Below, piece after piece: positions 2,911 through 62,230 of a stretch of DNA of 64,000 nt (positions are counted from its first letter, which is position 1; each line of letters starts with the position of its first letter). Position numbers and translations under genes: made by a program. This stretch comes from Eledone cirrhosa (taxonomy: Eukaryota): NCBI GenBank assembly GCA_964016885.1, contig OZ024743.1, forward strand, positions 56,854,001 to 56,918,000, given 5' to 3'. The notes under the pieces were generated by a model. That model saw only the letters and a program-made list of their open reading frames with translations, ran no database searches and had not been told where the DNA came from.

Positions 2911-4289
2911 AAAGCTTGGCATAAGATATCAACATAAAAACATGCACCCAGCACTCACTGTAAATGAGGTTGGTGTTAGGAAGGGCATCCAGCTGTAGAA
3001 ATCAAGCCAGAATCAGTTCCCATCCCACCCTTGCAAGCAAGGAAAAGCGGACGTAAAAATGATGATGATGATGATGTGTGTGATATATAAATAAATATTT
3101 GGAAATGTGGGACTATCAAATACAGAAAATAACTGTAATAGTTGATCACGATAAAGAGCTGGCAGCTGTGGCTACTGGCCACTTCTTTTTCTGTCTACTA
3201 TTAGATATAGCAATTGCCTGTTGTTTCACTTGTTTTCTACATTTGGGATTCTTACATTTTCAAATTACCCAATGCTGCAATAATTCATTTATGGCATTTA
3301 TAGTCCTTTCCTCTACAGCCAGATCTGCCCTTCTTTACTCCCTTCCCCCCTTTTTTCATTACTTAATTAAAAAAAAATTTTTTTAAAAATATTTCCACCA
3401 TAGTATAACTTCAGTTTGTAAAATATAGTTGACATTCTTTATATAAGGGTTGAAATAAAAAAAAACATTATAAAGTTTATTTACTTCTGGCTATGCTCTG
3501 TTTAGTATAATTTTCTAAAAATAGACAGAAGGGCCAGTCACTCCTTAGCCTAAAGGTAATGCATTCATACAGTATTCAAGAGATAGGTGTTTGATTCTCT
3601 GTAGATGCACAGGTCACTTTTTTTTTCTGTCTCTAGGGTTATTTTACAAATGATGGTGATGATGATGATACTCTACCTTGTGTGTCACCACCTCCTACCT
3701 TAATGGATAATTAGATATTAAATATATGTTCTTTCATTGAAATAGTGGTTCTTAGAGACACAAGACACTCATTTGCAATCCCAGGTTTTCTCAATTCCTC
3801 CCCCATCTCAAATTGTCATCTAATAATTCTTCACCCAAGCACCATATTAGCATGAGCAAATCTTTTCAAACCTCAATAAGAGTATAGTTACTAATGGGAT
3901 TAAGTTTGAAGCAGCATTATTTTTGTGAACTGTTAATTTAAGATTACCCTTATTGTAAGAGTCCTCCCCGATTCCATCCTTGGTAAAAATTCATTCCTTG
4001 GGAATCACGCACCTCCTGTTCATGAATCACTGGTTTGGAGGAAGGGGCTGTATACATGAACTTGCAGAACTCTTAAGACTAATGAGATTGATGTTGTTGA
4101 TGTTTAATTTAAATCGTTAAAGGTGTAACTTCTGCAAGGAAGACATATTATCAGAGAAAGAATTCCAAAGGACAACATTCGGGGAAGGAAGGACTGGGAA
4201 AAGTGGTTAATGTGAGGACCTGATTGTTGGACACAATATGGGTGATTAGAGTAGGTGAGGTGAATGAGATGAGCATGCTTTTACCACAA

Positions 4290-7262
4290 TAATATCAGCT
4301 TATGCACCGCAATCGGGGTTGCCAGACGAACTTAAGGATAGGTTTTACGAGTCCCTAATGCACACTACTACTCTAACAAACGACAATGACTTCCTAATTA
4401 TCGCAGGAGATTTTAACGGACACGTAGGTAAACACTGCGACGGCTTCAATAGAGTCCATGGAGGCCATGGGGTTGGCACAAGAAATGAGGAAGGATTCAG
4501 ACTTCTAGAATTCTGCGACGCCAATGACATGTCGATATGTAACACAAACTTCAAAAAACCCGACAACCACCTTATCACCTATAGATCAGGGGAGCATTCT
4601 AGTCAGATATATTTTATCCTCATCAGAGGACGTGACAGATGGACGGTCGTAAACACAAAAGCCTTCCCTAGTAAGGAATGTACATCCCAACATAGCTTAG
4701 TTGTCAGCGACCTCACAGTCAGAACTAGACGAACCTGGAAACAGAGGCCAACCTGGAGAAGAAAGATCTGGAAGCTGAAAGACCCCTCAACCAGTAACAG
4801 ATTTAAAGATATTTTACTTAACGCCGACGACAGTAAAGAAGAACAGATAGAGACATTCAATGTAGAAGAGAACTGGGAGTTGCTAAAAAATAACTTACTA
4901 GAGGCGACGGATGAGGTCTGTGGCTGGAGTAAGACCACAAGCAGGAGGAGAGTGACTTGGTGGTGGAACAATAAGGTAGATGAGGCAGTTAAGGCCAAGA
5001 GACAGGCATGGAAAGAATGGAAGAACGGGGGGAGCAGGGTACATTACATAGAGACCAAGAGGGAAGCTAGGTGACAAGTATACTTAGCTAGGAGGGAAGC
5101 ATGTTTTGCAACGTGAGGACCAGAAACAGGAGGTGTTCAAGATTGCGAGGCAGTGTGTCAGAGAGAATTGTGATGTCATTGGAGAGAAGTGTATCCGGAA
5201 TGATAAAGGTGAGCTTGCCCTCACAAGTGCTGAGAAGAAAGATGCATGGAAGAGTCATTATGATAGATTACTAAATGAGGAGAATGCATGGGAAGAAGAG
5301 ACCCTATAGAGGGGCCAGCAGTACAAGTCAGCAGCAGCGTAGTAAGGAAATCAAAGATATGCAGATGGGGAAGGCAACCGGTCCATCGGGTATAGCTGCC
5401 GAGATGCTGAAGGCATCTGGGTCTGTAGGTAACATTATAACCACACGTATTGTTAACCAGGTAATACTAGAAGGTGTCATACCAAAAGATTGGTGCAGTA
5501 GCATCATTGTCAACTGCTACAAAGGTAAAGGTGATGCACCAGATAGAGGAAACTATAGAGGTATAAAGCTGATGGACCAGGTCATGAAAGTAACAGAAAG
5601 AGTTATAGCACAGTTGATTAGGGACCGGGTGAAACTAGACGAGATGCAATTTGGGTTTGTAGCAGGAAGAGGCACCACTGATGCCCTCTTCCTTGTCAGG
5701 CAGTTACAGGAAAAGTACCTAGTTAAAAGTAAGCCACTCTACCTGGCATTTGTCGATCTTGAGAAAGCCTTTGACAGAGTTCCACGTGCTGTAATCTGGT
5801 GGGCTCTTAGAAAACTAGGAGTAGATGAATGGCTTGTGAAAGCTGTACAAGCCATGTATAGGGGAGCAGTCAGTAAAGTTAGGATTAGCAATGAGTATAG
5901 CGAGGAATTTAGCGTACAGGTTGGGGTCCACCAGGGCTCTGTTCTTAGCCCCCTCCTGTTCATCATAGTCCTGCAGGCAATAACGGAGGAGTTTAAGACC
6001 GGATGCCCATGGGAACTCCTGTATGCTGATGACCTCGCATTTATAGCTGAATCTATGGTAGAACTAGAGAAGAAATTCCAAACTTGGAAGCAGGGACTAG
6101 AAAGAAAGGGTCTCAAAGTCAACATGACAAAGACTAAGGTCCTTGTAAGTAGATGAGAAAACAGAACCCAGATCCCCTCAGGGAAATGGCCTTGCTCAGT
6201 ATGTAGGAAAGGTGTAGGTAGGAACTCCATTCTCTGCCCCAAATGCAAACAATGGGTACACAAGAGATGTAGCGGGATCTCAGGAAGCTTAATTAAGAAT
6301 GTAGGCTTCACATGCAGCAGCTGTGCTGGGACAGCAAGCAGCAAACAGCCACAGTAAACAAGTACCACCAATCTCTGGGAGGGCTCTGTAGAAACAGTAG
6401 ACAACTTCTGCTACCTAGGTGACCGAATTAGCAGCAGAGGTGGGTGTTCAGAAAGTACAATAACTAGGGTAAAAACGGGATGGAAGAAGTTTAGGGAACT
6501 ACTACCACTGCTAGCTGCAAAAGGCTTCTCCCTCAAAATGAAAGGCAGACTGTATGATGCGTGTATCCGAACAGCGATGTTGCATGGTAGTGAGACCTGG
6601 GCGCTGAAGGTGGAAGACTTACGTAGATTAGAGAGAAACGAAGCCTGCATGCTCCGATGGATGTGTAATAGTAATATACGCGAACGACAAAGCATAAATG
6701 AATTGAGAGAGAGACTGAGCATAAGAGGAATCAAATGCTGTGTGCAGGAGAGGCGGTTGCGTTGGTATGGACATGTGATGCGTATGAAGGATGACAGCTG
6801 CATAAAAAGGTGCAGAGCACTAGAAGTCGATGGAAACCGCGGAGTGGGGAGACCCAAGATGAGGTAATAAAAGCCGACCTTACCCAATTACACCTCTCAA
6901 ACGACCGTGACCTCTGGCGTCACCCAGTAATACAGAGTACCCGACCTCCCATGGGTACAAGCCGAAGCATATAGACAATATGCCCCCACACCCCCCACTG
7001 CAAGGTGGTCGTGGAGGTGCCACAGCAAAAAAGCACCCAGCCCACACTGTAAAGTGGACGTGTAGGCGCCACGAAAAAGCACCCAGCACTCACTGTAAAT
7101 GAGGTTGGTGTTAGGAAAGGCATCCAGCTGTAGAAATCAAGCCAAATCAGTTCCTGTATGAGCAAGGCATGGTCAGCCGACCAGACACTGCCCACAACAG
7201 GACAACCCGTCTAACCCATGCTAGCGTGGAAGAACGGACGTAAAACGGTGATGATGATGATG
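4290..7262 (+). mobile_element. 5'-truncated, degenerate RTE-clade LINE (APE endonuclease + RT + PHD-like zinc finger), antisense within an OLA1 intron
   Basis: APE motifs (SAYAPQ, GDFNGHVG, SQH), RT motifs (QFGF, FVDLEKAFD, GVHQGSVLSP, YADD), CSVC...CPKC..WVH..C finger, RRLRWYGHV and an (ATG)n tail. Interrupted by stops and frameshifts near 5072, 5300 and 6154. Confidence 0.95.
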
Positions 7263-11490: not shown

Positions 11491-14305
11491 GTAGACTAAG
11501 GTATAATGTTGGGTCATAGTAGGATAGATTAAGACTGTAATGTTGGGTTATAGTAGCATAGACTAAGGTATTATGTTGGGTCATAGTAGGATAGACTAAG
11601 GTATTATGTTGGGTCATAGTAGGATAGACTAAGGTATTATGTTGGGTCATAGTAGGATAGACTAAGGTATTATGTTGGGTTATAGTAGGATAGACTAAGG
11701 TATTATGTTGGGTCATAGTAGGATAGACTAAGGTATTATGTTGGGATATAGTAGGATAGACTAAGGTATTATGGTGGGATATAGTAGGATAGACTAAGGT
11801 ATTATGTTGGGTCATAGTAGGATAGACTAAGGTATTATGTTGGGTCATAGTAGGATAGACTAAGGTATTATGTTGGGATATAGTAGGATAGACTAAGGTA
11901 TTATGTTGGGATATAGTAGGATAGACTAAGATATTATGTTGGGTCATAGTAGGATAGACTAAGGTATTACGTTGGGTCATAGTAGGATAGACTAAGGTAT
12001 TATGTTGGGTTATAGTAGGATAGACTAAGGTATTATGTTGGGATATAGTAGGATAGACTAAGGTATTATGTTGGGATATAGTAGGATAGACTAAGGTATT
12101 ATGTTGGGTCATAGTAACATAGACTAAGGTATTATGTTGGGATATAGTAGGATAGACTAAGGTATTATGTTGGGTCATAGTAGGATAGACTAAGGTATTA
12201 TGTTGGGATATAGTAGGATAGACTAAGGTATTATGTTGGGTCATAGTAGGATAGACTAAGGTATTATGTTGGGTCATAGTAGGATAGACTAAGGTATTAT
12301 GTTGAGTCATAGTAGGATAGACTAAGGTATTATGTTGGGATATAGTAGGATAGACTAAGGTATTATGTTGGGTCATAGTAGGATAGACTAAGGTATTATG
12401 TTGGGATATAGTAGGATAGACTAAGGTATTATGTTGGGATATAGTAGGATAGACTAAGGTATTATGTTGGGTCATAGTAGGATAGACTAAGGTATTATGT
12501 TGGGATATAGTAGGATAGACTAAGGTATTATGTTGGGATATAGTAGGATAGACTAAGGTATTATGTTGGGATATAGTAGGATAGACTAAGGTATTATGTT
12601 GGGTCATAGTAGGATAGACTAAGGTATTATGTTGGGATATAGTAGGATAGACTAAGGTATTATGTTGGGATATAGTAGGATAGACTAAGGTATTATGTTG
12701 GGATATAGTAGGATAGACTAAGGTATTATGTTGGGTCATAGTAGGATAGACTAAGGTATTATGTTGGGTCATAGTAGGATAGACTAAGGTATTATGTTGG
12801 GATATAGTAGGATAGACTAAGGTATTATGTTGGGTCATAGTAGGATAGACTAAGGTATTATGTTGGGATATAGTAGGATAGACTAAGGTATTATGTTGGG
12901 TCATAGTAGGATAGACTAAGGTATTATGTTGGGTCATAGTAGGATAGACTAAGGTATTACGTTGGGTCATAGTAGGATAGACTAAGGTATTACGTTGGGT
13001 CATAGTAGGATAGACTAAGGTATTATGTTGGGTCATAGTAGGATAGACTAAGGTATTATGTTGGGTCATAGTAGGATAGATTAAGGTATTATGTTGGGTC
13101 ATAGTAGGATAGACTAAGGTATTATGTTGGGTCATAGTAGGACAGACTAAGGCATTATGTTGGGTTATAGTAGGATAGACTAAGGTATTACGTTGGGTCA
13201 TAGTAGGATAGACTAAGGTATTATGTTAGGTCATAGTAGGATAGACTAAGTTATTATGTTGGGTCATAGTAGGATAGACTAAGGTATTATGTTGGGTCAT
13301 AGTAGGATAGACTAAGTTATTATGTTGGGATATAGTAGGATAGACTAAGGTATTATGTTGGGTCATAGTAGGACAGACTAAGGTATTATGTTGGGTTATA
13401 GTAACATAGACTAAGGTATTATGTTGGGTCATAGTAGGATAGACTAAGGTATTATGTTGGGTCATAGTAGGATAGACTAAGGTATTATGTTGGGTTATAG
13501 CAAGATAGATTAAGGTATTATGTTGGGTCATAGTAGGATAAACTAAGGCATTATGTTGGGTTATAGTAACATAGACTAAGGTATTATGTTGGGTTATAGC
13601 AAGATAGACTAAGGTATTATGTTGGGTCATAGTAGGATAGACTAAGGTATTATGTTGGGTTATAGTAACATAGACTAAGGTATTATGTTGGGTCATAGTA
13701 GGATAGACTAAGGTATTATGTTGGGTCATAGTAGGATAGACTAAGGTATTATGTTGGGTTATAGTAACATAGACTAAGGTATTATGTTGGGTCATAGTAG
13801 GATAGACTAAGGTATTATGTTGGGTCATAGTAGGATAGACTAAGGTATTATGTTGGGTTATAGTAGGACAGACTAAGGTATTATGTTGGGTTATAGTAAC
13901 ATAGACTAAGGTATTATGTTGGGTCATAGTAGGATAGACTAAGGTATTATGTTGGGTCATAGTAGGATAGACTAAGGTATTATGTTGGGTTATAGTAACA
14001 TAGACTAAGGTATTATGTTGGGTTATAGCAAGATAGACTAAGGTATTATGTTGGGTCATAGTAGGATAGACTAAAGTATTATGTTGGGTCATAGTAGGAT
14101 AGACTAAGGTATTATGTTGGGTCATAGTAGGATAGATTAAGGTATTATGTTGGGTCATAGTAGGATAGACTAAGGTATTATGTTGGGTTATAGTAACATA
14201 GACTAAGGTATTATGTTGGGTCATAGTAGGATAGACTAAGGTATTATGTTGGGTCATAGTAGGATAGACTAAGGTATTATATTGGGTTATAGCAAGATAG
14301 ATTAA
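11491..14305. repeat. 33-bp minisatellite (ATAGACTAAGGTATTATGTTGGGTCATAGTAGG), about 85 units, in an OLA1 intron
   Basis: Direct tandem periodicity. Confidence 0.98.
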
Positions 14306-14442
14306 GAATGTAATTCCAGGTCATAGCTGGCTAAGACCAAAGCCATACTGGGTCATAAGAGAATAGACTAAGATTGTTATGTTAGATTGTAGTAAGATTT
14401 GAACATTTAACATTCCATGTTAAAGAAGAAAGCAATACTTAC

Positions 14443-33361: not shown

Positions 33362-34060
33362 TTGCAGCATTGCTGCAGATTATAGTGAGACTAAGAGGTT
33401 GGGTTAATCCAGGCTATCACACAGCATTGCTGCAGGTTATAGTAAGGCTAAGAGGCTGGTATAATCTAGGCTATCACACTCACAGCATTGCTGTGGGTTA
33501 TAGTGAGGCTAAGAGGCTGGGATAATCTAGGCTATCACACTCACAGCATTGCTGTGGGTTATAGTGAGGCTAAGAGGCTGGGATAATCTAGGCTATCACA
33601 CTCACAGCATTGCTGTGGGTTATAGTGAGGCTAAGAGGCTGGGATAATCTAGGCTATCACACTCACAGCATTGCTGTGGGTTATAGTGAGGCTAAGAGGC
33701 TGGGATAATCTAGGCTATCACACTCACAGCATTGCTGTGGGTTATAGTGAGGCTAAGAGGCTGGGATAATCTAGGCTATCACACTCACAGCATTGCTGTG
33801 GGTTATAGTGAGGCTAAGAGGCTGGTATAATCTAGGCTATCACACTCACAGCATTGCTGTGGGTTATAGTGAGGCTAAGAGGCTGGGATAATCTAGGCTA
33901 TCACACTCACAGCATTGCTGTGGGTTATAGTGAGGCTAAGAGGCTGGGATAATCCAGGCTATCACACTCACAGCATTGCTATGGTTATAGTGAGACTAAG
34001 AGCCTGGGATAATCTAGGCTATCACACTCACAGCATTGTTGGGGGTTATAGTGAGGCTAT
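33362..34060. repeat. 59-bp minisatellite, about 12 units
   Basis: GGGATAATCTAGGCTATCACACTCACAGCATTGCTGTGGGTTATAGTGAGGCTAAGAGGCT repeated in tandem. Confidence 0.97.
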
Positions 34061-43168: not shown

Positions 43169-43560
43169 GGAGGCACATGGCTTAGTGGTTAGAGCATTGA
43201 CCTTGCAATCGAAAGGTTGTGAGTTCAATTCTCAGACCGGGTGATGTGTTGTTTCCTTGAGCAAGACACTTTATTTCACATTGCTCCAGTTTACTCAGCT
43301 GTAGAAATGAGTTGATAGGACTGGGGTCCCTATTATTCCGCTGCAAAGTGGTCGTGGAGGTGCCACAGCAAAAAAAAAAACACCCAGCCCACACTTTAAA
43401 GTGGACGTGTAGGCGCCAGGAAAAAAAAAAGCACCGAGCACTCACTGTAAATGAGGTTTGTGTTAGGAAGGGCATCCAGCTGTAGAAATCAAGCCAGAAT
43501 CAGTTTCCGTCCCACCCTTGCAAGCAGGGAAAAGCGGACGTAAAATGATGATGATGACGA

Positions 43561-43563
<3 letters not shown>
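43169..43563 (+). mobile_element. tRNA-derived SINE with RTE-derived 3' tail
   Basis: Same family as 24028-24360; ends in (ATG)n and sits within (TA)n. Confidence 0.85.
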
Positions 43564-43638
<75 letters not shown>

Positions 43639-43644
43639 AGACAG

Positions 43645-43680
<36 letters not shown>

Positions 43681-44038
43681 CTGTCTGTTTATGTATGGAA
43701 CTTAGTGGTTAAGAAAAAAAAAAATGAGAACAAGAATTTTTTTTAAAAGTGCTGGTATTGATATAATCGATGAAATACCTTAAAGGCAGTACCCAATCAT
43801 GGTCGCAGTTTAATGACTAAAAGAAGTAAAAGACTGAAGGAATGAAAGGGAAAAATCTGCAGCTGATTCTCAAATTTCTGTTCAGCATCTGATAGCATCA
43901 GTATGTCTGTGAAACTACTCAGGATTCTAAAGGGATGGGGAGGGGGGGGGGGCACATCCTACCATCCTATAGATTATGGTAGAAAGATGGGAACAATAAT
44001 TTAGCAATGCCCTAATTTATTTAATTCTTTATTTATCA

Positions 44039-44227: not shown

Positions 44228-44285
<58 letters not shown>

Positions 44286-44338
44286 CGAGAGACGTAAAAT
44301 AAAAAAATTATAAAATTAACTTACTTACTAAAATATCA

Positions 44339-44418
44339 CTTCCAACTAATTAGTTTCTGGAATGGAATAAATATATTTTCCGAAGAAAACATGGAGAATC
44401 ATTCCGTCGTCAGGGAAG
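44339..44418 (-). ncRNA. Hammerhead ribozyme motif
   Basis: CTTCC-CTGACGA-C-GGAATG...CATTCC-A-GAAA-CTAATTAGT-T-GGAAG: stem I CTTCC/GGAAG, stem II and palindromic stem III AACTAATTAGTT. Confidence 0.78.
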
Positions 44419-44840
44419 ACTATTCTCATCTAAGTATCCAGGCAAGGCGTGGACTCTGGAAACTTATTAAAAAATAATTCAGTGGATAGAAAATAGCAAC
44501 GCGTGGACTGAATTCCTAGCCATTGAGAAAATCACTGCCTCTGCGTCGGTGGCAAATTCAAAAAGAATCAATCACGTGACATCGAGGTCAATCAGTGGAA
44601 AGTGGTTTGCTAATAAGACAGCGGCCTGCCTGCTACCATAGCAGCAGTCATGGCCAATATTGCTCGACAAATAATTGGAGATAATTATAAAGAATTAATA
44701 TCTAGTAACATATATATACATACAGATGCATATCAATGCTAGCAAATATATAGGTTTTGTCTTAGTAACTTTGTGGTTCAATGCATGGGTTTGCAGAACA
44801 ATAATATGAGAGACGTAAAATAAGAAAATTATAAAATTAA

Positions 44841-44920
44841 CTTACCTGACGACGGAATGATTCTCTATGTTTTCTTCTGAAAATATATTTATTCCATTCC
44901 AGAAACTAATTAGTTGGAAG
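44841..44920 (+). ncRNA. Hammerhead ribozyme motif (inverted copy of 44339-44418)
   Basis: CTTAC-CTGACGA-C-GGAATG...CATTCC-A-GAAA-CTAATTAGTT-GGAAG. Confidence 0.72.
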
Positions 44921-45249
44921 TGATATTTTAGTAAGTAAGTTAATTTTATATATATATATATATTGATCAGCAATTCAGAACAAGATATGTAGAGCCATAT
45001 GAAGTAGCCAGGCTAAAACTTCAGTCATTGCTACTTTTCTACTCAGAAAATATACATACGTATATGTATTGAGTGTTCATCCTACAATGATATTTTAAAC
45101 TTTAAACACATATATATATATTATATATATAGATGTTGTCATCATCAATATCATCATCATCATTTAACATCTACTATGATGATGATAATGATATCTCTCT
45201 CCCCCCCTCTCTCTATCTCTCAATATATATATATATATATATAGAAAAA

Positions 45250-45732
45250 CCTGGGACAACTTGATAAATTCCGACCTCACACACTTACACCTCTCCAAGA
45301 CAATGTCACTGGACCGAGATCTTTGGCGTTACGCAGTAATACAGAAGACCCGCCTTGCCTAAGTACAAAGCGAAACCTACAGTCAGTAGGCACCTCTAAC
45401 AAAAATACACCCCATCCACACCACCCCTTTCGATGTAAAGTTATGTTGGTACCACAACATCCAGTCCGAAATAAATGAGGTCGTGTAGGTGTCACGACAA
45501 AAAAACACACAGTCCACGCTGTAATGTGGCCGTGTAGGTAACACGGTAAAAACCTCCCAGTCCACACGGTAAACGTGGTTGGTGTTAGGAAGGGCATCCA
45601 GCCGTAGAAAACCTGCCAGACAGTCCTATACGAGCAAGACAACCAATCTTGCCTCAAGTGGGAAAATTCCCGTCTAAACCCATGCAAGCGTGGAAGATGG
45701 ACGTTAAACGATGATGATGATGATGATGATGA
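45250..45732 (+). mobile_element. RTE 3' end, near-identical in sequence to 23009-23410 (opposite strand)
   Basis: Shared sequence (gagatctttggcg...acagtcagtaggcacctc...ccagacagtcc) and (ATG)n tail. Confidence 0.85.
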
Positions 45733-45765
45733 TATATATTCTTTGTTAAGGCTAAATGATAAGTC

Positions 45766-55874: not shown

Positions 55875-58502
55875 TTGGTGACATTGATATTGTTGATGTT
55901 TAGTGTGACATATGACTGTCACCCACATTGTTGACACTGGTGTTGTTGATGTTTAGTGTGACACAGGACTGTCACCCACATTTGTGACACTGGTGTTGTT
56001 GATGTTTAGTGTGACACAGGACTGTCTCCCACATTGGTGACACGAGTTGTTGATGTTTAGTGTAACACAGGACTGTCACACACATTGGTGACACTGGTGT
56101 TGTTGATGTTTAGTGTGACACAGGACTGTCTCCCACATTGGTGACGATGATATTGTTGATGTTTAGTGTGACATATGACTGTCTCCCACATTGGTGACAC
56201 TGGTGTTGTTGATGTTTAATGTGACATATTATTGTCTCCCACATTGGTGACACTGGAGTTGTTTAGTGTGACATGACTGTCTACCACATTGGTGACACTG
56301 GTTTTGTTGATGTTTAGTGTCACATATGACTCTCACACATTGGTGACACTCATGTTGTTGATGTTTAGTGTGACATATGGCTGTCTCCCACATTGGTGAC
56401 ACTGGTGTTGTTGATGTTTAGTGTGACATATGGCTGTCTCCCACATTGGTGACACTGGTGTTGTTTAGTGTGACATATGACTGTCTCCCACATTGGTGAT
56501 ACTGGAGTTGTTGATGTTTAGTGTGACACAGGACTGTCTCCCACATTGGTGACACTGGTGTTGTTGATGTTTAGTGTGACATATGACTCTCACACATTGG
56601 TGACACTCATGTTGTTGATGTTTAGTGTGACATATGGCTGTCTCCCACATTGGTGACACTGATGTTGTTGATGTTTAGTGTGACATATGGCTGTCTCCCA
56701 CATTGGTGACACTGGTGTTGTTGATGTTTAGTGTGACATATGGCTGTCTCCCACATTGGTGACACTGATGTTGTTGATGTTTAGTGTGACATATGGCTGT
56801 CTCACACATTGGTGACACTGATGTTGTTGATGTTTAGTGTGACATATGACTGTCTCCCACATTGGTGACACTCATGTTGTTGATGTTTAGTGTGACATAT
56901 GACTGTCTCCCACATTGGTGACACTCATGTTGTTGATGTTTAGTGTGACATATGGCTGTCTCCCACATTGGTGACACTGGTGTTGTTGATGTTTAGTGTG
57001 ACATATGGCTGTCTCCCACATTGGTGACACTGATTTTGTTGATGTTTAGTGTGACATATGGCTGTCTCCCACATTGGTGACACTGGTGTTGTTGATGTTT
57101 AGTGTGACATATGGCTGTCTCCCACATTGGTGACACTGGTGTTGTTGATGTTTAGTGTGACACAGGAATGTCTCCCACATTGGTGACACTCATGTTGTTG
57201 ATGTTTAGTGTGACATATGGCTGTCTCCCACATTGGTGACACTGATGTTGTTGATGTTTAGTGTGACACAGGAATGTCTCCCACATTGGTGACACTGGTG
57301 TTGTTGATGTTTAGTGTGACATATGGCTGTCTCCCACATTGGTGACACTGGTGTTGTTGATGTTTAGTGTGACACAGGAATGTCTCCCACATTGGTGACA
57401 CTGATGTTGTTGATGTTTAGTGGGACATATGGCTGTCTCCCACATTGGTGACACTGGAGTTGTTGATGTTTAGTGTGACACAGAACTGTCTCCCACATTG
57501 GTGACACTGGTGTTGTTGATGTTTAATGTGACATATTACTGTCTCCCACATTGGTGACACTGGAGTTGTTTAGTGTGACATGACTGTCTCCCACATTGGT
57601 GATACTGGAGTTATTGATGTTTAGTGTGACACAGGACTGTCTCCCACATTGGTGACACTGGTGTTGTTGATGTTTAGTGTGACATATGACTCTCACACAT
57701 TGGTGACACTCATGTTGTTGATGTTTAGTGTGACATATGACTGTCTCCCACATTGTTGACACTAATGTTTTTGATGTTTAGTGTAACACAGGACTGTCTC
57801 CCACATTGGTGACACTGATGTTGTTGATGTTTAGTGTGACATATGGCTGTCTCCCACATTGGTGACACTGGTGTTGTTGATGTTTAGTGTGACATAGGAA
57901 TGTCTTCCACATTGGTGACACTCATGTTTTTGATGTTTAGTGTGACATATGGCTGTCTCCCACATTGGAGACACTGGTGTTGTTGATGTTTAGTGTGACA
58001 TATGACTGTCTCCCACATTGGTGACACTGGTGTTGTTGATGTTTAGTGTGACATATGGCTGTCTCCCACATTGGAGACACTAATGTTTTTGATGTTTAGT
58101 GTGACATGTGGCTGTCTCCCACATTGGAGACACTAATGTTTTTGATGTTTAGTGTGACATATGACTGTCTCCCACATTGGTGACACTGATGTTGTTGATG
58201 TTTAGTGTGACATATGGCTGTCTCCCACATTGGTGACACTGATGTTGTTGATGTTTAGTGTGACATATGGCTGTCTCCCACATTGGAGACACTAATGTTT
58301 TTGATGTTTAGTGTGACATATGACTGTCTCCCACATTGGTGACACTGATGTTGTTGATGTTTAGTGTGACATATGGCTGTCTCCCACATTGGAGACACTA
58401 ATGTTTTTGATGTTTAGTGTGACACAGGATTGTCTCCCACATTGGTGACACTGGAGTTGTTAATGTTTAGTGTGACACAGAACTGTCTTCCACATTGGTG
58501 AC
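55875..58502. repeat. 53-bp minisatellite, about 50 units, downstream of the CCNY exon
   Basis: CCCACATTGGTGACACTGGTGTTGTTGATGTTTAGTGTGACATATGGCTGTCT repeated in tandem. Confidence 0.97.
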
Positions 58503-60737: not shown

Positions 60738-62147
60738 TAACATTGAGGTAGACTGTTGGACATTGAGGTGGACTGTTGGACATTGAGGTGGACTGTTGGA
60801 CATTGAGGTGGACTGTTGGACATTGAGGTGGACTGTTGGACATTGAGGTGGACTGTTGGACATTGAGGTAGACTGTTGGACATTGAGGTGGACTGTTGGA
60901 CATTGAGGTGGACTGTTGGACATTGAGGTGGACTGTTGGACATTGAGGTGGGCTGTTGGACATGGAGGTGGACTGTTGGACATTGAGGTGGACTGTTGGA
61001 CATGGAGGTGGACTGTTGGACATTGAGGTGGGCTGTTGGACATGGAGGTGGACTGTTGGACATTGAGGTGGACTGTTGGACATTGAGGTGGACTGTTGGA
61101 CATTGAGGTGGACTGTTGGACATTGAGGTGGACTGTTGGACATTGAGGTAGACTGTTGGACATTGAGGTGGACTGTTGGACATTGAGGTGGACTGTTGGA
61201 CATTGAGGTGGACTGTTGGACATTGAGGTGGGCTGTTGGACATGGAGGTGGACTGTTGGACATGGAGGTGGACTGTTGGACATTGAGGTGGGCTGTTGGA
61301 CATGGAGGTGGACTGTTGGACATTGAGGTGGGCTGTTGGACATGGAGGTGGACTGTTGGACATTGAGGTGGGCTGTTGGACATGGAGGTGGACTGTTGGA
61401 CATGGAGGTGGACTGTTGGACATGGTGGTGGATTGTTGGACATGGAGGTGGACTGTTGGACATGGTGGACTGATGGACATTGTGGTGGACTGTTGGACAT
61501 GGTGGACTGATGGACATTGTGGTGGACTGTTGAGCATTGAGGTGTACTGTTGGACATTGAGATGGACTGTTGGACATTGAGATGGACTGTTGGACATGGA
61601 GGTGGACTGTTGGACATTGAGATGGACTGTTGGACATTGAGATGGACTGTTGGACATTGAGATGGACTGTTGGACATTGAGGTGGACTGTTGGACATTGA
61701 GGTGGACTGTTGGACATTGAGGTGGACTGTTGGACATTGAGGTGGACTGTTGGACATTGAGGTGGACTGTTGGACATTGAGGTGGACTGTTGGGCATTGA
61801 GGTGGACTGTTGGACATTGAGGTGGATTGTTGGACATTGAGGTGGACTGTTGGACATTGAGGTGGACTGTTGGACATTGAGGTGGACTGTTGGACATTGA
61901 GGTGGACTGTTGGACATTGAGGTGGACTGTTGGACATTGAGGTGGACTGTTGGACATTGAGGTGGACTGACGGACATTGAGGTGGACTGTTGGACATTGA
62001 GGTGGACTGTTGGACATTGAGGTGGACTGTTAGACATTGAGGTGGACTGTTGGACATTGAGGTGGACTGACGGACATTGAGGTGGACTGACGGACATTGA
62101 GGTGGGCTGTTGGACATTGAGATGGACTGTTGGACATTGTGGTGGAC
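60738..62147. repeat. 20-bp minisatellite (GGACATTGAGGTGGACTGTT), about 70 units
   Basis: Direct tandem periodicity. Confidence 0.98.
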
Positions 62148-62230
62148 TATTGTACTTTACATTGATATATAAAAAGCATTAATATATATATACTTACATT
62201 CATATTGTTTTTGTAAAAAAACGATATCTT

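What the first reader, a model, noticed from the sequence alone, without database searches (positions are those of the whole stretch)
44285..44950. About 670-bp non-coding element with two inverted hammerhead ribozymes, inserted in (TA)n
Seen: the segment is bounded on both sides by (TA)n. 44309-44413 and 44846-44950 are inverted repeats, each with a full HHR core (CTGACGA...GAAA), a 6-bp stem II base, a self-complementary stem III (AACTAATTAGTT) and stem I CTTCC/GGAAG. A 38-nt direct repeat (gagagacgtaaaataa.aaaattataaaattaacttac) occurs at 44287 and 44808. No ORF is present. Known: Penelope-like elements carry minimal HHRs in pseudo-LTRs that cleave as dimers through palindromic stem III, and retrozymes are non-autonomous HHR elements. 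Inference: this is either a solo pLTR pair or a non-autonomous, microsatellite-targeting ribozyme retroelement family in a mollusc, able to self-process RNA from either strand.
Basis: partly seen in the sequence, partly recalled or inferred. Interest (0 to 1): 0.75.

Follow-up and report, generated by a model that had tools for sequence, protein, structure and literature searches.

The report
Two-armed hammerhead retrozyme, Penelope-style insertion
This is one copy of a 521-base non-coding repeat with a predicted self-cutting RNA motif, present thousands of times in TA microsatellites of this animal genome; its mirror-image second ribozyme is likely a by-product of a Penelope-type retrotransposon enzyme copying one RNA, likely a circle, onto both ends of a DNA break.

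Summary
It is one 521-bp tandem unit of a non-coding hammerhead repeat (a non-LTR retrozyme) plus a 110-bp inverted arm. A 26-nt ribozyme motif has 2,228 exact genomic matches; a 17-nt motif shared with sister families has 13,041. The right-arm ribozyme has a broken stem I and arises from the inversion, so cleavage 'from either strand' is not supported. Insertion footprints: 62 of 63 inverted insertions with two canonical ends have one short and one long end; arms of one insertion share family-diagnostic bases (3.7% vs 40.5% discordance); 5' truncations are 3.2-fold enriched just after the predicted cut; a co-varying helix opposite the cut would lock the ribozyme in a circle; a sister family shows dinucleotide stutter at its long end. 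Best reading: a Penelope-type (probably Neptune-like) enzyme primes both target strands at two fixed sites of one RNA. Cleavage, expression, circles and the partner enzyme are untested. This scan noted the two-end rule earlier in other families.

The parts
44231..44282 (.). (TA)n at the 3' end of the main arm (target microsatellite, possibly lengthened at insertion)
44283..44343 (-).
44339..44418 (-). Intact type I hammerhead: stem I CTTCC 44418-44414 / GGAAG 44343-44339; core CTGACGA 44413-44407; stem II base 44405-44400 / 44364-44359 with C-A at its foot; apical UUCG hairpin; GAAA 44357-44354; palindromic stem III; predicted cut after GUU between 44344 and 44343
   Evidence: covariation
44325..44845 (-). 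One complete 521-bp tandem unit (family units 519-525 and 542 bp; sister families up to 571 bp), non-coding; whole element 33% GC
44589..44604 (-). Segment complementary to the sequence across the cleavage site, half a unit away; predicted lock/splint helix, co-varying between families
44686..44686 (-). Internal position of end site B (179 nt after the cut), the second fixed 3' end used by other copies
44804..44845 (-). Upstream copy of the 42-nt repeat = start of the unit; a consequence of tandem periodicity, not an LTR
44841..44845 (.). Head-to-head inversion junction with 5-nt overlap (CTTAC in place of CTTCC)
44841..44950 (+). Inverted second arm: hammerhead core from 44846, stem I broken, ending at an atypical TA site 35 nt after its cut position instead of site B
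44951..44964 (.). Short (TA)n at the outer end of the inverted arm

Best explanation
This is a copy of a non-coding, tandem 521-bp hammerhead repeat (non-LTR retrozyme) that was likely written into a TA microsatellite by the reverse transcriptase and GIY-YIG endonuclease of a Penelope-like element, which likely primed both target strands on one RNA. SHOWN: unit, tandem arrays, copy number, conserved co-varying type I hammerhead, two fixed 3' end sites 61 and 179 nt after the predicted cut, the one-short-one-long rule for inverted insertions, same-template identity of arms and units, excess of 5' ends just after the cut, and a co-varying helix across the cut. INFERRED: (1) an array is transcribed and the hammerhead cuts at GUU, perhaps as a dimer through the palindromic stem III; (2) the monomer's two ends are held together by the mid-unit complementary segment and ligated to a circle in which the ribozyme is locked; (3) a Penelope-type protein, probably Neptune-like and acting as a dimer, nicks both strands of (TA)n and starts reverse transcription inside the RNA, one strand at site A and the other at site B, with stutter on the first dinucleotides; (4) each cDNA runs for a variable length, more than once round the unit in many copies, and stops more often at a cut 5' end; (5) the two cDNAs join head-to-head by microhomology (inverted copy), or one arm is lost (direct copy). 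The window copy is one unit plus a short second arm; its second ribozyme is a by-product.
For: Family: 2,098 candidates, 40 scored, full-length hits 96-100% identical, 522-bp period; 2,228 exact matches to a 26-nt ribozyme motif, 3,558 to a 27-nt tail motif, 13,041 to a 17-nt motif shared with sister families, reversed controls 0; in three public runs of one sample, contig depth over the element is about 1e4-1e5 against 4-10 on unique flank. Structure: 24 diverse hammerheads, 96.7% of 427 cells paired, 7 of 18 pairs with changes on both sides, slid controls 32-49%. Ends: of 135 de-duplicated elements, 76 inverted; 62 A+B, 1 B+B, 0 A+A, 13 with at least one atypical end; 57 of 59 direct copies end at A or B; binomial p=7e-18 for 62 of 63; sister families 30 A+B, 2 A+A, 4 other of 36. 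The best (TA) match inside the unit (9 nt) is the end of only 2 arms, so pairing alone does not pick the sites. One template: at 28 non-CpG diagnostic sites arms differ at 40 of 1,085 comparisons (3.7%), tandem units at 39 of 1,344 (2.9%), separate elements at 40.5% (L110 left out). 5' ends: 26 of 209 fall in the 19 nt after the cut, hazard 3.2-fold, p=4.6e-7, 1.2e-5 after 27 windows; sister families 12 against 5.0 expected after dropping 4 reference-edge cases, p=0.005. Lock helix: same homologous place at 0.51-0.55 of the unit in 21 of 21 unit clusters; own junction fits better than the swapped one in 17 of 18; pairing probability in the circle 0.99/0.94 for the main family. Stutter: in the sister family 18 of 21 terminal site-B copies have an expanded (CT)n, 0 of 15 internal copies. 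Non-autonomy: 0 of 59 direct copies joined to a PLE ORF, no shared 5' flank. Candidate machinery: 10,596 GIY-YIG candidates, RT+GIY-YIG ORFs with a CxxC linker ending in (TA)n; one such family also has two fixed end sites. Literature: PLE tandem/inverted insertions with a one-sided tail (PMC8557442); two internal RT start sites and extension of both strands in vitro (PMC11167929); retrozyme circles and the PLE hypothesis (PMC7229834).
Against: No cleavage, expression or circle was observed. No sequence link to a specific PLE: 9 local alignments of three unit types with the 3' regions of three PLE families scored within shuffles (best 2 of 100). The window copy itself breaks the rule (second arm ends at neither site). 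The rule is weaker in ORF-related PLE families of this genome: family C 2 A+B and 1 B+B, family B 2 A+B, family A 2 of 2 same-site. In vitro, the anole PLE showed no difference in start site between strands and did not need hammerhead cleavage. The 5' ends lie 1-17 nt after the cut, not exactly on it; the excess was not significant in the best-hit subset (1.8-fold, p=0.13), and about 85% of passages read through (25 stops in 175). The lock helix also forms in an uncut linear multimer, rests on about one or two independent changes, beat shuffles clearly (<=2 of 100) in only 12 of 21 clusters, and is weak in the linear monomer for 3 of 6 units. The ribozyme has C-A rather than G-C directly next to the core and a GUU site (a poor triplet, recalled); 8 of 9 Xenopus retrozymes did not cleave in vitro. 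The (CT)n count came from a best-hit set whose query carried a short (CT) run.
Confidence: 0.72

Rival explanations
1. Same element and enzyme, but the template is an uncut or partly cut linear multimer, or a cut monomer that the enzyme re-enters by jumping from 5' end to 3' end; no circle is needed.
For: 5' ends pile up after the cut, which needs some linear cut ends. The anole PLE uses unprocessed RNA in vitro. The lock helix would also silence the ribozyme in a multimer.
Against: A stop rate of 0.0026 per nt should shrink arrays every generation, yet arrays of 3-5 units exist and their units look born alike (2.9% discordance at diagnostic sites; 0-1 differences in 486 nt in L180, L002, L083). 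The helix sits half a unit from the junction in all 21 clusters. Template jumping is not excluded by these data.
Confidence: 0.3
2. The two arms are copied from two separate RNA molecules held in an asymmetric protein dimer (or paired through the palindromic stem III), one read from site A and one from site B.
For: Both arms can be long at once (697 and 1,180 nt in L206; 1,000 and 597 in L014), which on one RNA needs strand displacement. Stem III is an invariant palindrome.
Against: Arms match at subfamily-diagnostic sites (3.7% vs 40.5%); the worst of 34 scored elements was 2 of 10. That needs both RNAs to come from one source.
Confidence: 0.25
3. The element is the truncated 3' pseudo-LTR of an autonomous Penelope-like element not met in my sample.
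For: Retrozymes resemble pLTRs in Xenopus; the sample is about 135 elements of several thousand.
Against: Going 5' from the ribozyme, copies run into another unit, an inverted arm or flank, with junctions spread over the whole unit; 0 of 59 direct copies joined to an ORF; the two same-strand PLE hits lie 808 and 1,228 nt away behind microsatellite.
Confidence: 0.07
4. The element is a purpose-built two-ribozyme cassette with terminal inverted repeats that processes RNA from both strands, or a MITE-like DNA element.
For: Arms are 97% complementary and both keep the catalytic core.
Against: Arm length and junction differ in every copy and 59 of 135 elements have no inverted arm; right-arm stem I is broken; the arms sequester each other in a full transcript.
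Confidence: 0.03

Closest known systems
Metazoan non-LTR retrozymes (Cervera and de la Pena 2020, PMC7229834; Li, Clavereau and Pollet 2026, bioRxiv 10.64898/2026.07.22.740005)
   Same: Non-coding, low-GC tandem units with one type I hammerhead each, dispersed as monomers to multimers, no LTR, co-occurring with PLEs; a ribozyme blocked by self-pairing was predicted for some mussel circles.
   Different: Unit of 521 bp is above the 150-450 bp of the 2020 paper but inside the 51-972 bp of the 2026 preprint. Head-to-head arms, two fixed end sites and (TA)n flanks are not described in the parts I read. RNA and cleavage are shown there, not here.
Canonical EN+ Penelope-like elements, Neptune-type (Craig et al. 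2021, PMC8557442; Cervera and de la Pena 2014, PMC4209133)
   Same: Partial tandems, 5' truncation, inverted 5' copy, tail often on one end only, microsatellite bias; hammerhead with short stem I, long stem II, extra base after A9 and palindromic stem III.
   Different: No ORF; the two end sites are 118 nt apart instead of 30-40; stem II carries a long apical extension and an extra A before GAAA; no detectable homology to three PLE families tested here.
Poseidon of Anolis, in vitro (Frangieh et al. 2024, PMC11167929)
   Same: Two internal start sites downstream of the hammerhead, AT-rich target, both strands cut and extended, predicted dimer.
   Different: There the start site did not differ between strands and was not homologous to the target; here inverted insertions use one site each and both sites end in AUAU/UAUA matching (TA)n.
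L1 twin priming and LINE 3' template slippage
   Same: Second target strand primes a second cDNA giving an inversion with microhomology; short repeats grow at the start of reverse transcription.
   Different: In L1 the second priming site is variable and the arms cover different parts of the RNA; here both sites are fixed and the arms overlap in sequence.

Membership tests
Non-LTR retrozyme | Type I hammerhead motif in each unit | tested here: met
   core positions 95-100% conserved in 182 segments (partly selected by the motif); Rfam models did not hit
Non-LTR retrozyme | Short head-to-tail tandem units, two or more ribozymes in a row at some loci | tested here: met
   521-522 bp period, up to about 5 units; the window copy itself is a monomer plus inverted arm
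Non-LTR retrozyme | No coding capacity, low GC, no LTR layout | tested here: met
   frames <=59 aa, 33% GC, no tRNA gene; PBS/PPT not searched separately
Non-LTR retrozyme | Dispersed by retrotransposition, independent of an ORF | tested here: met
   many contigs, fixed 3' ends, variable 5' ends, 0 of 59 direct copies joined to a PLE ORF; a sample, not the whole genome
Non-LTR retrozyme | Self-cleavage of the RNA | not testable with these tools
   indirect only: excess of 5' ends after the predicted cut
Non-LTR retrozyme | Expressed as monomeric linear and circular RNA | not testable with these tools
   no RNA run available; indirect only: helix across the junction
Autonomous Penelope-like element | ORF with RT and GIY-YIG endonuclease | tested here: not met
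Autonomous Penelope-like element | Partial tandem / inverted insertions with a one-sided tail | tested here: met
   description in PMC8557442
Non-autonomous derivative of a named PLE family | Sequence homology to the pLTR of an autonomous family in the same genome | tested here: inconclusive
   no homology to three families or to 49 GIY-YIG loci beyond AT-rich chance matches and two unlinked older copies; only 150 of 10,596 GIY-YIG candidates were scored
PLE-type minimal hammerhead (PMC4209133) | Extra base between 9 and 10.1, G10.1-C11.1 pair, palindromic stem III | tested here: inconclusive
   extra C, a conserved G-C pair (23 of 24) and the palindrome are present, but an invariant extra A lies between that pair and GAAA
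MITE / DNA transposon | Fixed terminal inverted repeats and constant length | tested here: not met
   arm lengths 30-2,392 nt, 59 of 135 without inversion

The most novel reading that the evidence does not exclude
The copies record the whole retrozyme cycle in DNA: a hammerhead that cuts in vivo, a built-in splint that closes and locks the circle, and a Penelope-type enzyme dimer that primes the two target strands from two different fixed sites of one circular RNA, stuttering like telomerase as it starts and so lengthening the microsatellites it lands in. This would explain the Penelope inverted repeat with one-sided tail and prove that Penelope elements mobilise animal retrozymes.
Probability: 0.3. 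Interest if true: 0.8.

Novelty: new member of a known kind. Interest (0 to 1): 0.5.

Why it matters
Two questions are open in the papers read: which enzyme moves animal retrozymes (PLEs are proposed from co-occurrence and pLTR likeness) and how PLEs make inverted insertions with a tail at one end. A young, high-copy, non-coding 521-nt RNA with exact end sites, a near-strict one-short-one-long rule, a predicted cut site marked by truncations and a mutable lock helix is a small, defined substrate on which both can be tested with a purified PLE protein. The element class itself is known.

Tried and rejected
Rfam scan: no hammerhead family hit, only low-complexity miRNA matches. No RNA holder listed, so expression was not assessed. 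Contigs of three runs of one sample showed no piece spanning the insertion and no empty allele. Search for the partner PLE: GIY-YIG loci, HHR and tail listing, local alignments with shuffles: no homology; a shared CGTCT word near the end of PLE family A is not significant. tRNA-derived head: none. A TA-rich or helix-stall cause for the 5' pile-up: the other TA-rich windows (0.0016-0.0040 per nt) and the partner side of the lock helix (0.0031-0.0037) are far below 0.0082, so less likely, not excluded. The alternating unit pattern in L110 (units 0-4 vs 16 differences) was not used as evidence for a circle because later local duplication or assembly error explains it; L110 was left out. Apparent chimeras with other ribozyme families (L005, L135, L257) were read as later nested insertions with deletion, not as template switches; not tested further. 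Four 5' ends at reference position 1 were dropped as edge artefacts. Target-site duplications cannot be read inside (TA)n. A taxonomy look-up says nothing on the host; the host was not determined.

Full report
Observation. The arms (44309-44418 / 44841-44950, 110 nt, 97%) and the 42-nt direct repeat 521 bp apart are there, between two (TA)n runs. Both arms hold a hammerhead core, a 6-bp stem II base and a palindromic stem III before GUU, but only the left one (minus strand) has stem I CTTCC/GGAAG; in the right arm the 5' strand is replaced at the inversion junction. No frame inside the element exceeds 59 aa. Rfam did not recognise the motif. The predicted cut lies between 44344 and 44343.

What it is. 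A search of the own genome (3.0 Gb) with 44287-44845 gave 2,098 candidates; the 40 scored gave 137 matches, full-length ones 96-100% identical, often in tandem at 522 bp. Exact motifs count 2,228 (ribozyme), 3,558 (tail) and 13,041 (stem III, shared with sister families at about 70-85% identity), with 0 for reversed controls. Contigs of three runs of one sample show the repeat at very high depth. The direct repeat is simply the start of the next unit. The window copy is one unit, a 61-nt tail, and a short inverted arm.

Sample. I mapped 135 distinct elements: 92 from loci taken mainly from the first 100 listed matches of two patterns on contig C1 (one, L260, came from another lead; neighbours in the same stretches were included) and 43 from best-hit lists. 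Elements touching a locus edge, under 60 nt or under 85% identity were dropped and not counted; L234 was set aside as a sister family. 76 are inverted (head-to-head), 59 direct.

Ends. 3' ends fall at two sites, A and B, 61 and 179 nt after the cut, each running into (TA)n. 57 of 59 direct copies end at A (38) or B (19). Of 76 inverted copies, 62 have one A and one B end, 1 has two B, none two A, and 13, the window copy among them, have at least one atypical end (p=7e-18 for 62 of 63 against one half). Sister families give 30 A+B, 2 A+A and 4 other of 36, classed by hand. Junctions mostly overlap by a few bases. The longest (TA) match inside the unit ends only 2 arms, so the sites are not chosen by pairing alone. 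3' flanks of direct copies are TA-rich in 50 of 59, 5' flanks in 27 of 59.

One template. Arms of one insertion differ by 2.3% and tandem units by 2.2%, against about 5% background. At 28 non-CpG diagnostic sites discordance is 3.7% (arms), 2.9% (units) and 40.5% (between elements), L110 left out. In several copies neither arm is contained in the other (e.g. L120), so the inversion is not a fold-back copy of one cDNA.

Ribozyme. In 24 diverse copies 96.7% of 427 cells pair and 7 of 18 pairs change on both sides; slid controls give 32-49% (related sequences inflate such counts). 5' ends of arms are enriched in the 19 nt after the cut: 26 of 209, 3.2-fold, p=4.6e-7; 4.1-fold in the position-sampled set, 1.8-fold and not significant in the best-hit set; 25 of 175 passages stop there. 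Sister families: 12 against 5.0 expected after removing 4 edge artefacts, p=0.005, or p=0.03 if two more doubtful ones go. I read this as a trace of cut RNA ends in vivo; stalling at structure is not excluded.

Lock helix. In the folded monomer the sequence across the cut pairs with 44604-44589. The best partner lies at the same homologous place, 0.51-0.55 of the unit, in 21 of 21 unit clusters; it beats shuffles (<=2 of 100) in 12 of 21. Where GGAAGTG became GGAGTG the partner changed too: own junction fits better in 17 of 18, which reflects only one or two independent changes. Pairing probability is 0.99/0.94 in the circle and 0.80/0.75 in the linear monomer for the main family, and low in the linear form for 3 of 6 units. 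It would silence the ribozyme and could splint ligation; it does not prove a circle.

Stutter. In the sister family site B reads TTCTCTATA inside arrays (15 of 15) but carries a longer (CT)n in 18 of 21 terminal copies, up to more than 20 repeats. The query had a short (CT) run, a selection bias; position-sampled L283, L285, L293, L294 and L306 show the same. This points to slippage at the start of reverse transcription, as recalled for LINE tails.

Partner. No direct copy is joined to a PLE ORF (0 of 59; upstream 587-2,500 nt scanned with 22 PLE frames; two same-strand hits 808 and 1,228 nt away behind microsatellite; no shared 5' flank). The genome is rich in RT+GIY-YIG elements, several with the CxxC linker that PMC8557442 gives for Neptune and Nematis, ending in (TA)n. 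Family C has two end sites with 2 A+B and 1 B+B inverted pairs, family B 2 A+B, family A 2 same-site pairs. None is homologous to the unit, so the partner is inferred, not identified.

The window copy. A transcript through both arms has all hammerhead helices at probability 0.0 on either strand; the local minus-strand ribozyme folds (stem I 0.69, stem III 0.70) and the right arm loses stem I once 145 nt of upstream context is included. The second ribozyme is a by-product.

Literature seen. bioRxiv 10.64898/2026.07.22.740005, parts 1-3 of 5; PMC7229834, passages and sections 14 and 17; PMC11167929, parts 1-2 of 4; PMC8557442 and PMC4209133, passages. Supplements were not opened and may list this family or show the end rule. 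Eight searches returned no listing that states a one-site-per-arm rule, a truncation excess at the cut or a junction-spanning helix for animal retrozymes; the library lacks most subscription papers and Repbase. A one-sided tail is described and blocked mussel circles are predicted. L1 twin priming, LINE slippage and the weakness of GUU sites are recalled.

Earlier notes of this scan. These notes are not independent support.

Verdict. New member of a known kind (non-LTR retrozyme) that works like a non-autonomous Penelope-like element. Interest 0.5: the class is known, but the footprints make the retrozyme-PLE link and the PLE inversion mechanism directly testable.

Noticed in passing
window 43635-43690: A short inverted repeat (about 10 nt each side) encloses a (TA)n run; it gives spurious miRNA matches in Rfam.
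   Followed up: no
window 43345-43576 and 45245-45740: Two copies of an extremely abundant repeat end with 48-53-bp sub-repeats and a (GAT)n tail running into (TA)n; contig depth about 1e6.
   Followed up: no
L091, L092, L100, L102 (family C) and L031, L108 (family A), 3' of the ORF: PLE families whose minimal hammerhead has U3-A8 in place of C3-G8.
   Followed up: partly
L104:5000 onward, L172 near 1576: An ORF-related PLE family (B) also shows (TATC)n or (TC)n expansions at its long end site.
   Followed up: partly
L093, L094, L096, L101, L106, L109, L050: Several further unrelated hammerhead families with stem II regions of 26-116 nt occur in this genome, some in tandem at about 511 bp.
   Followed up: no
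L005, L135, L257, L111, L066: Copies often sit directly against the (TA)n tails or truncated ends of other PLE, ribozyme or SINE-like families, suggesting nested insertion hot spots.
   Followed up: partly
L110 (G000:C1604:4000-13900): A 3.4-kb inverted array whose units alternate in sequence (0-4 vs 16 differences), suggesting later duplication of a dimer or an assembly artefact.
   Followed up: partly
window 44572-44596, minus strand: A CTGATTGACC...TCACGTGATTGATTC stretch is conserved across sister families next to the lock segment and resembles CCAAT/E-box-like words in the pLTR of PLE family B; possible internal promoter.
   Followed up: no
window 11492-14306, 33365-34059, 55875-58502, 60740-62152: Long minisatellites with 33-, 61-, 53- and 20-bp units.
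   Followed up: no
window 4268-6156: Two long plus-strand frames (268 and 293 aa) not examined.
   Followed up: no
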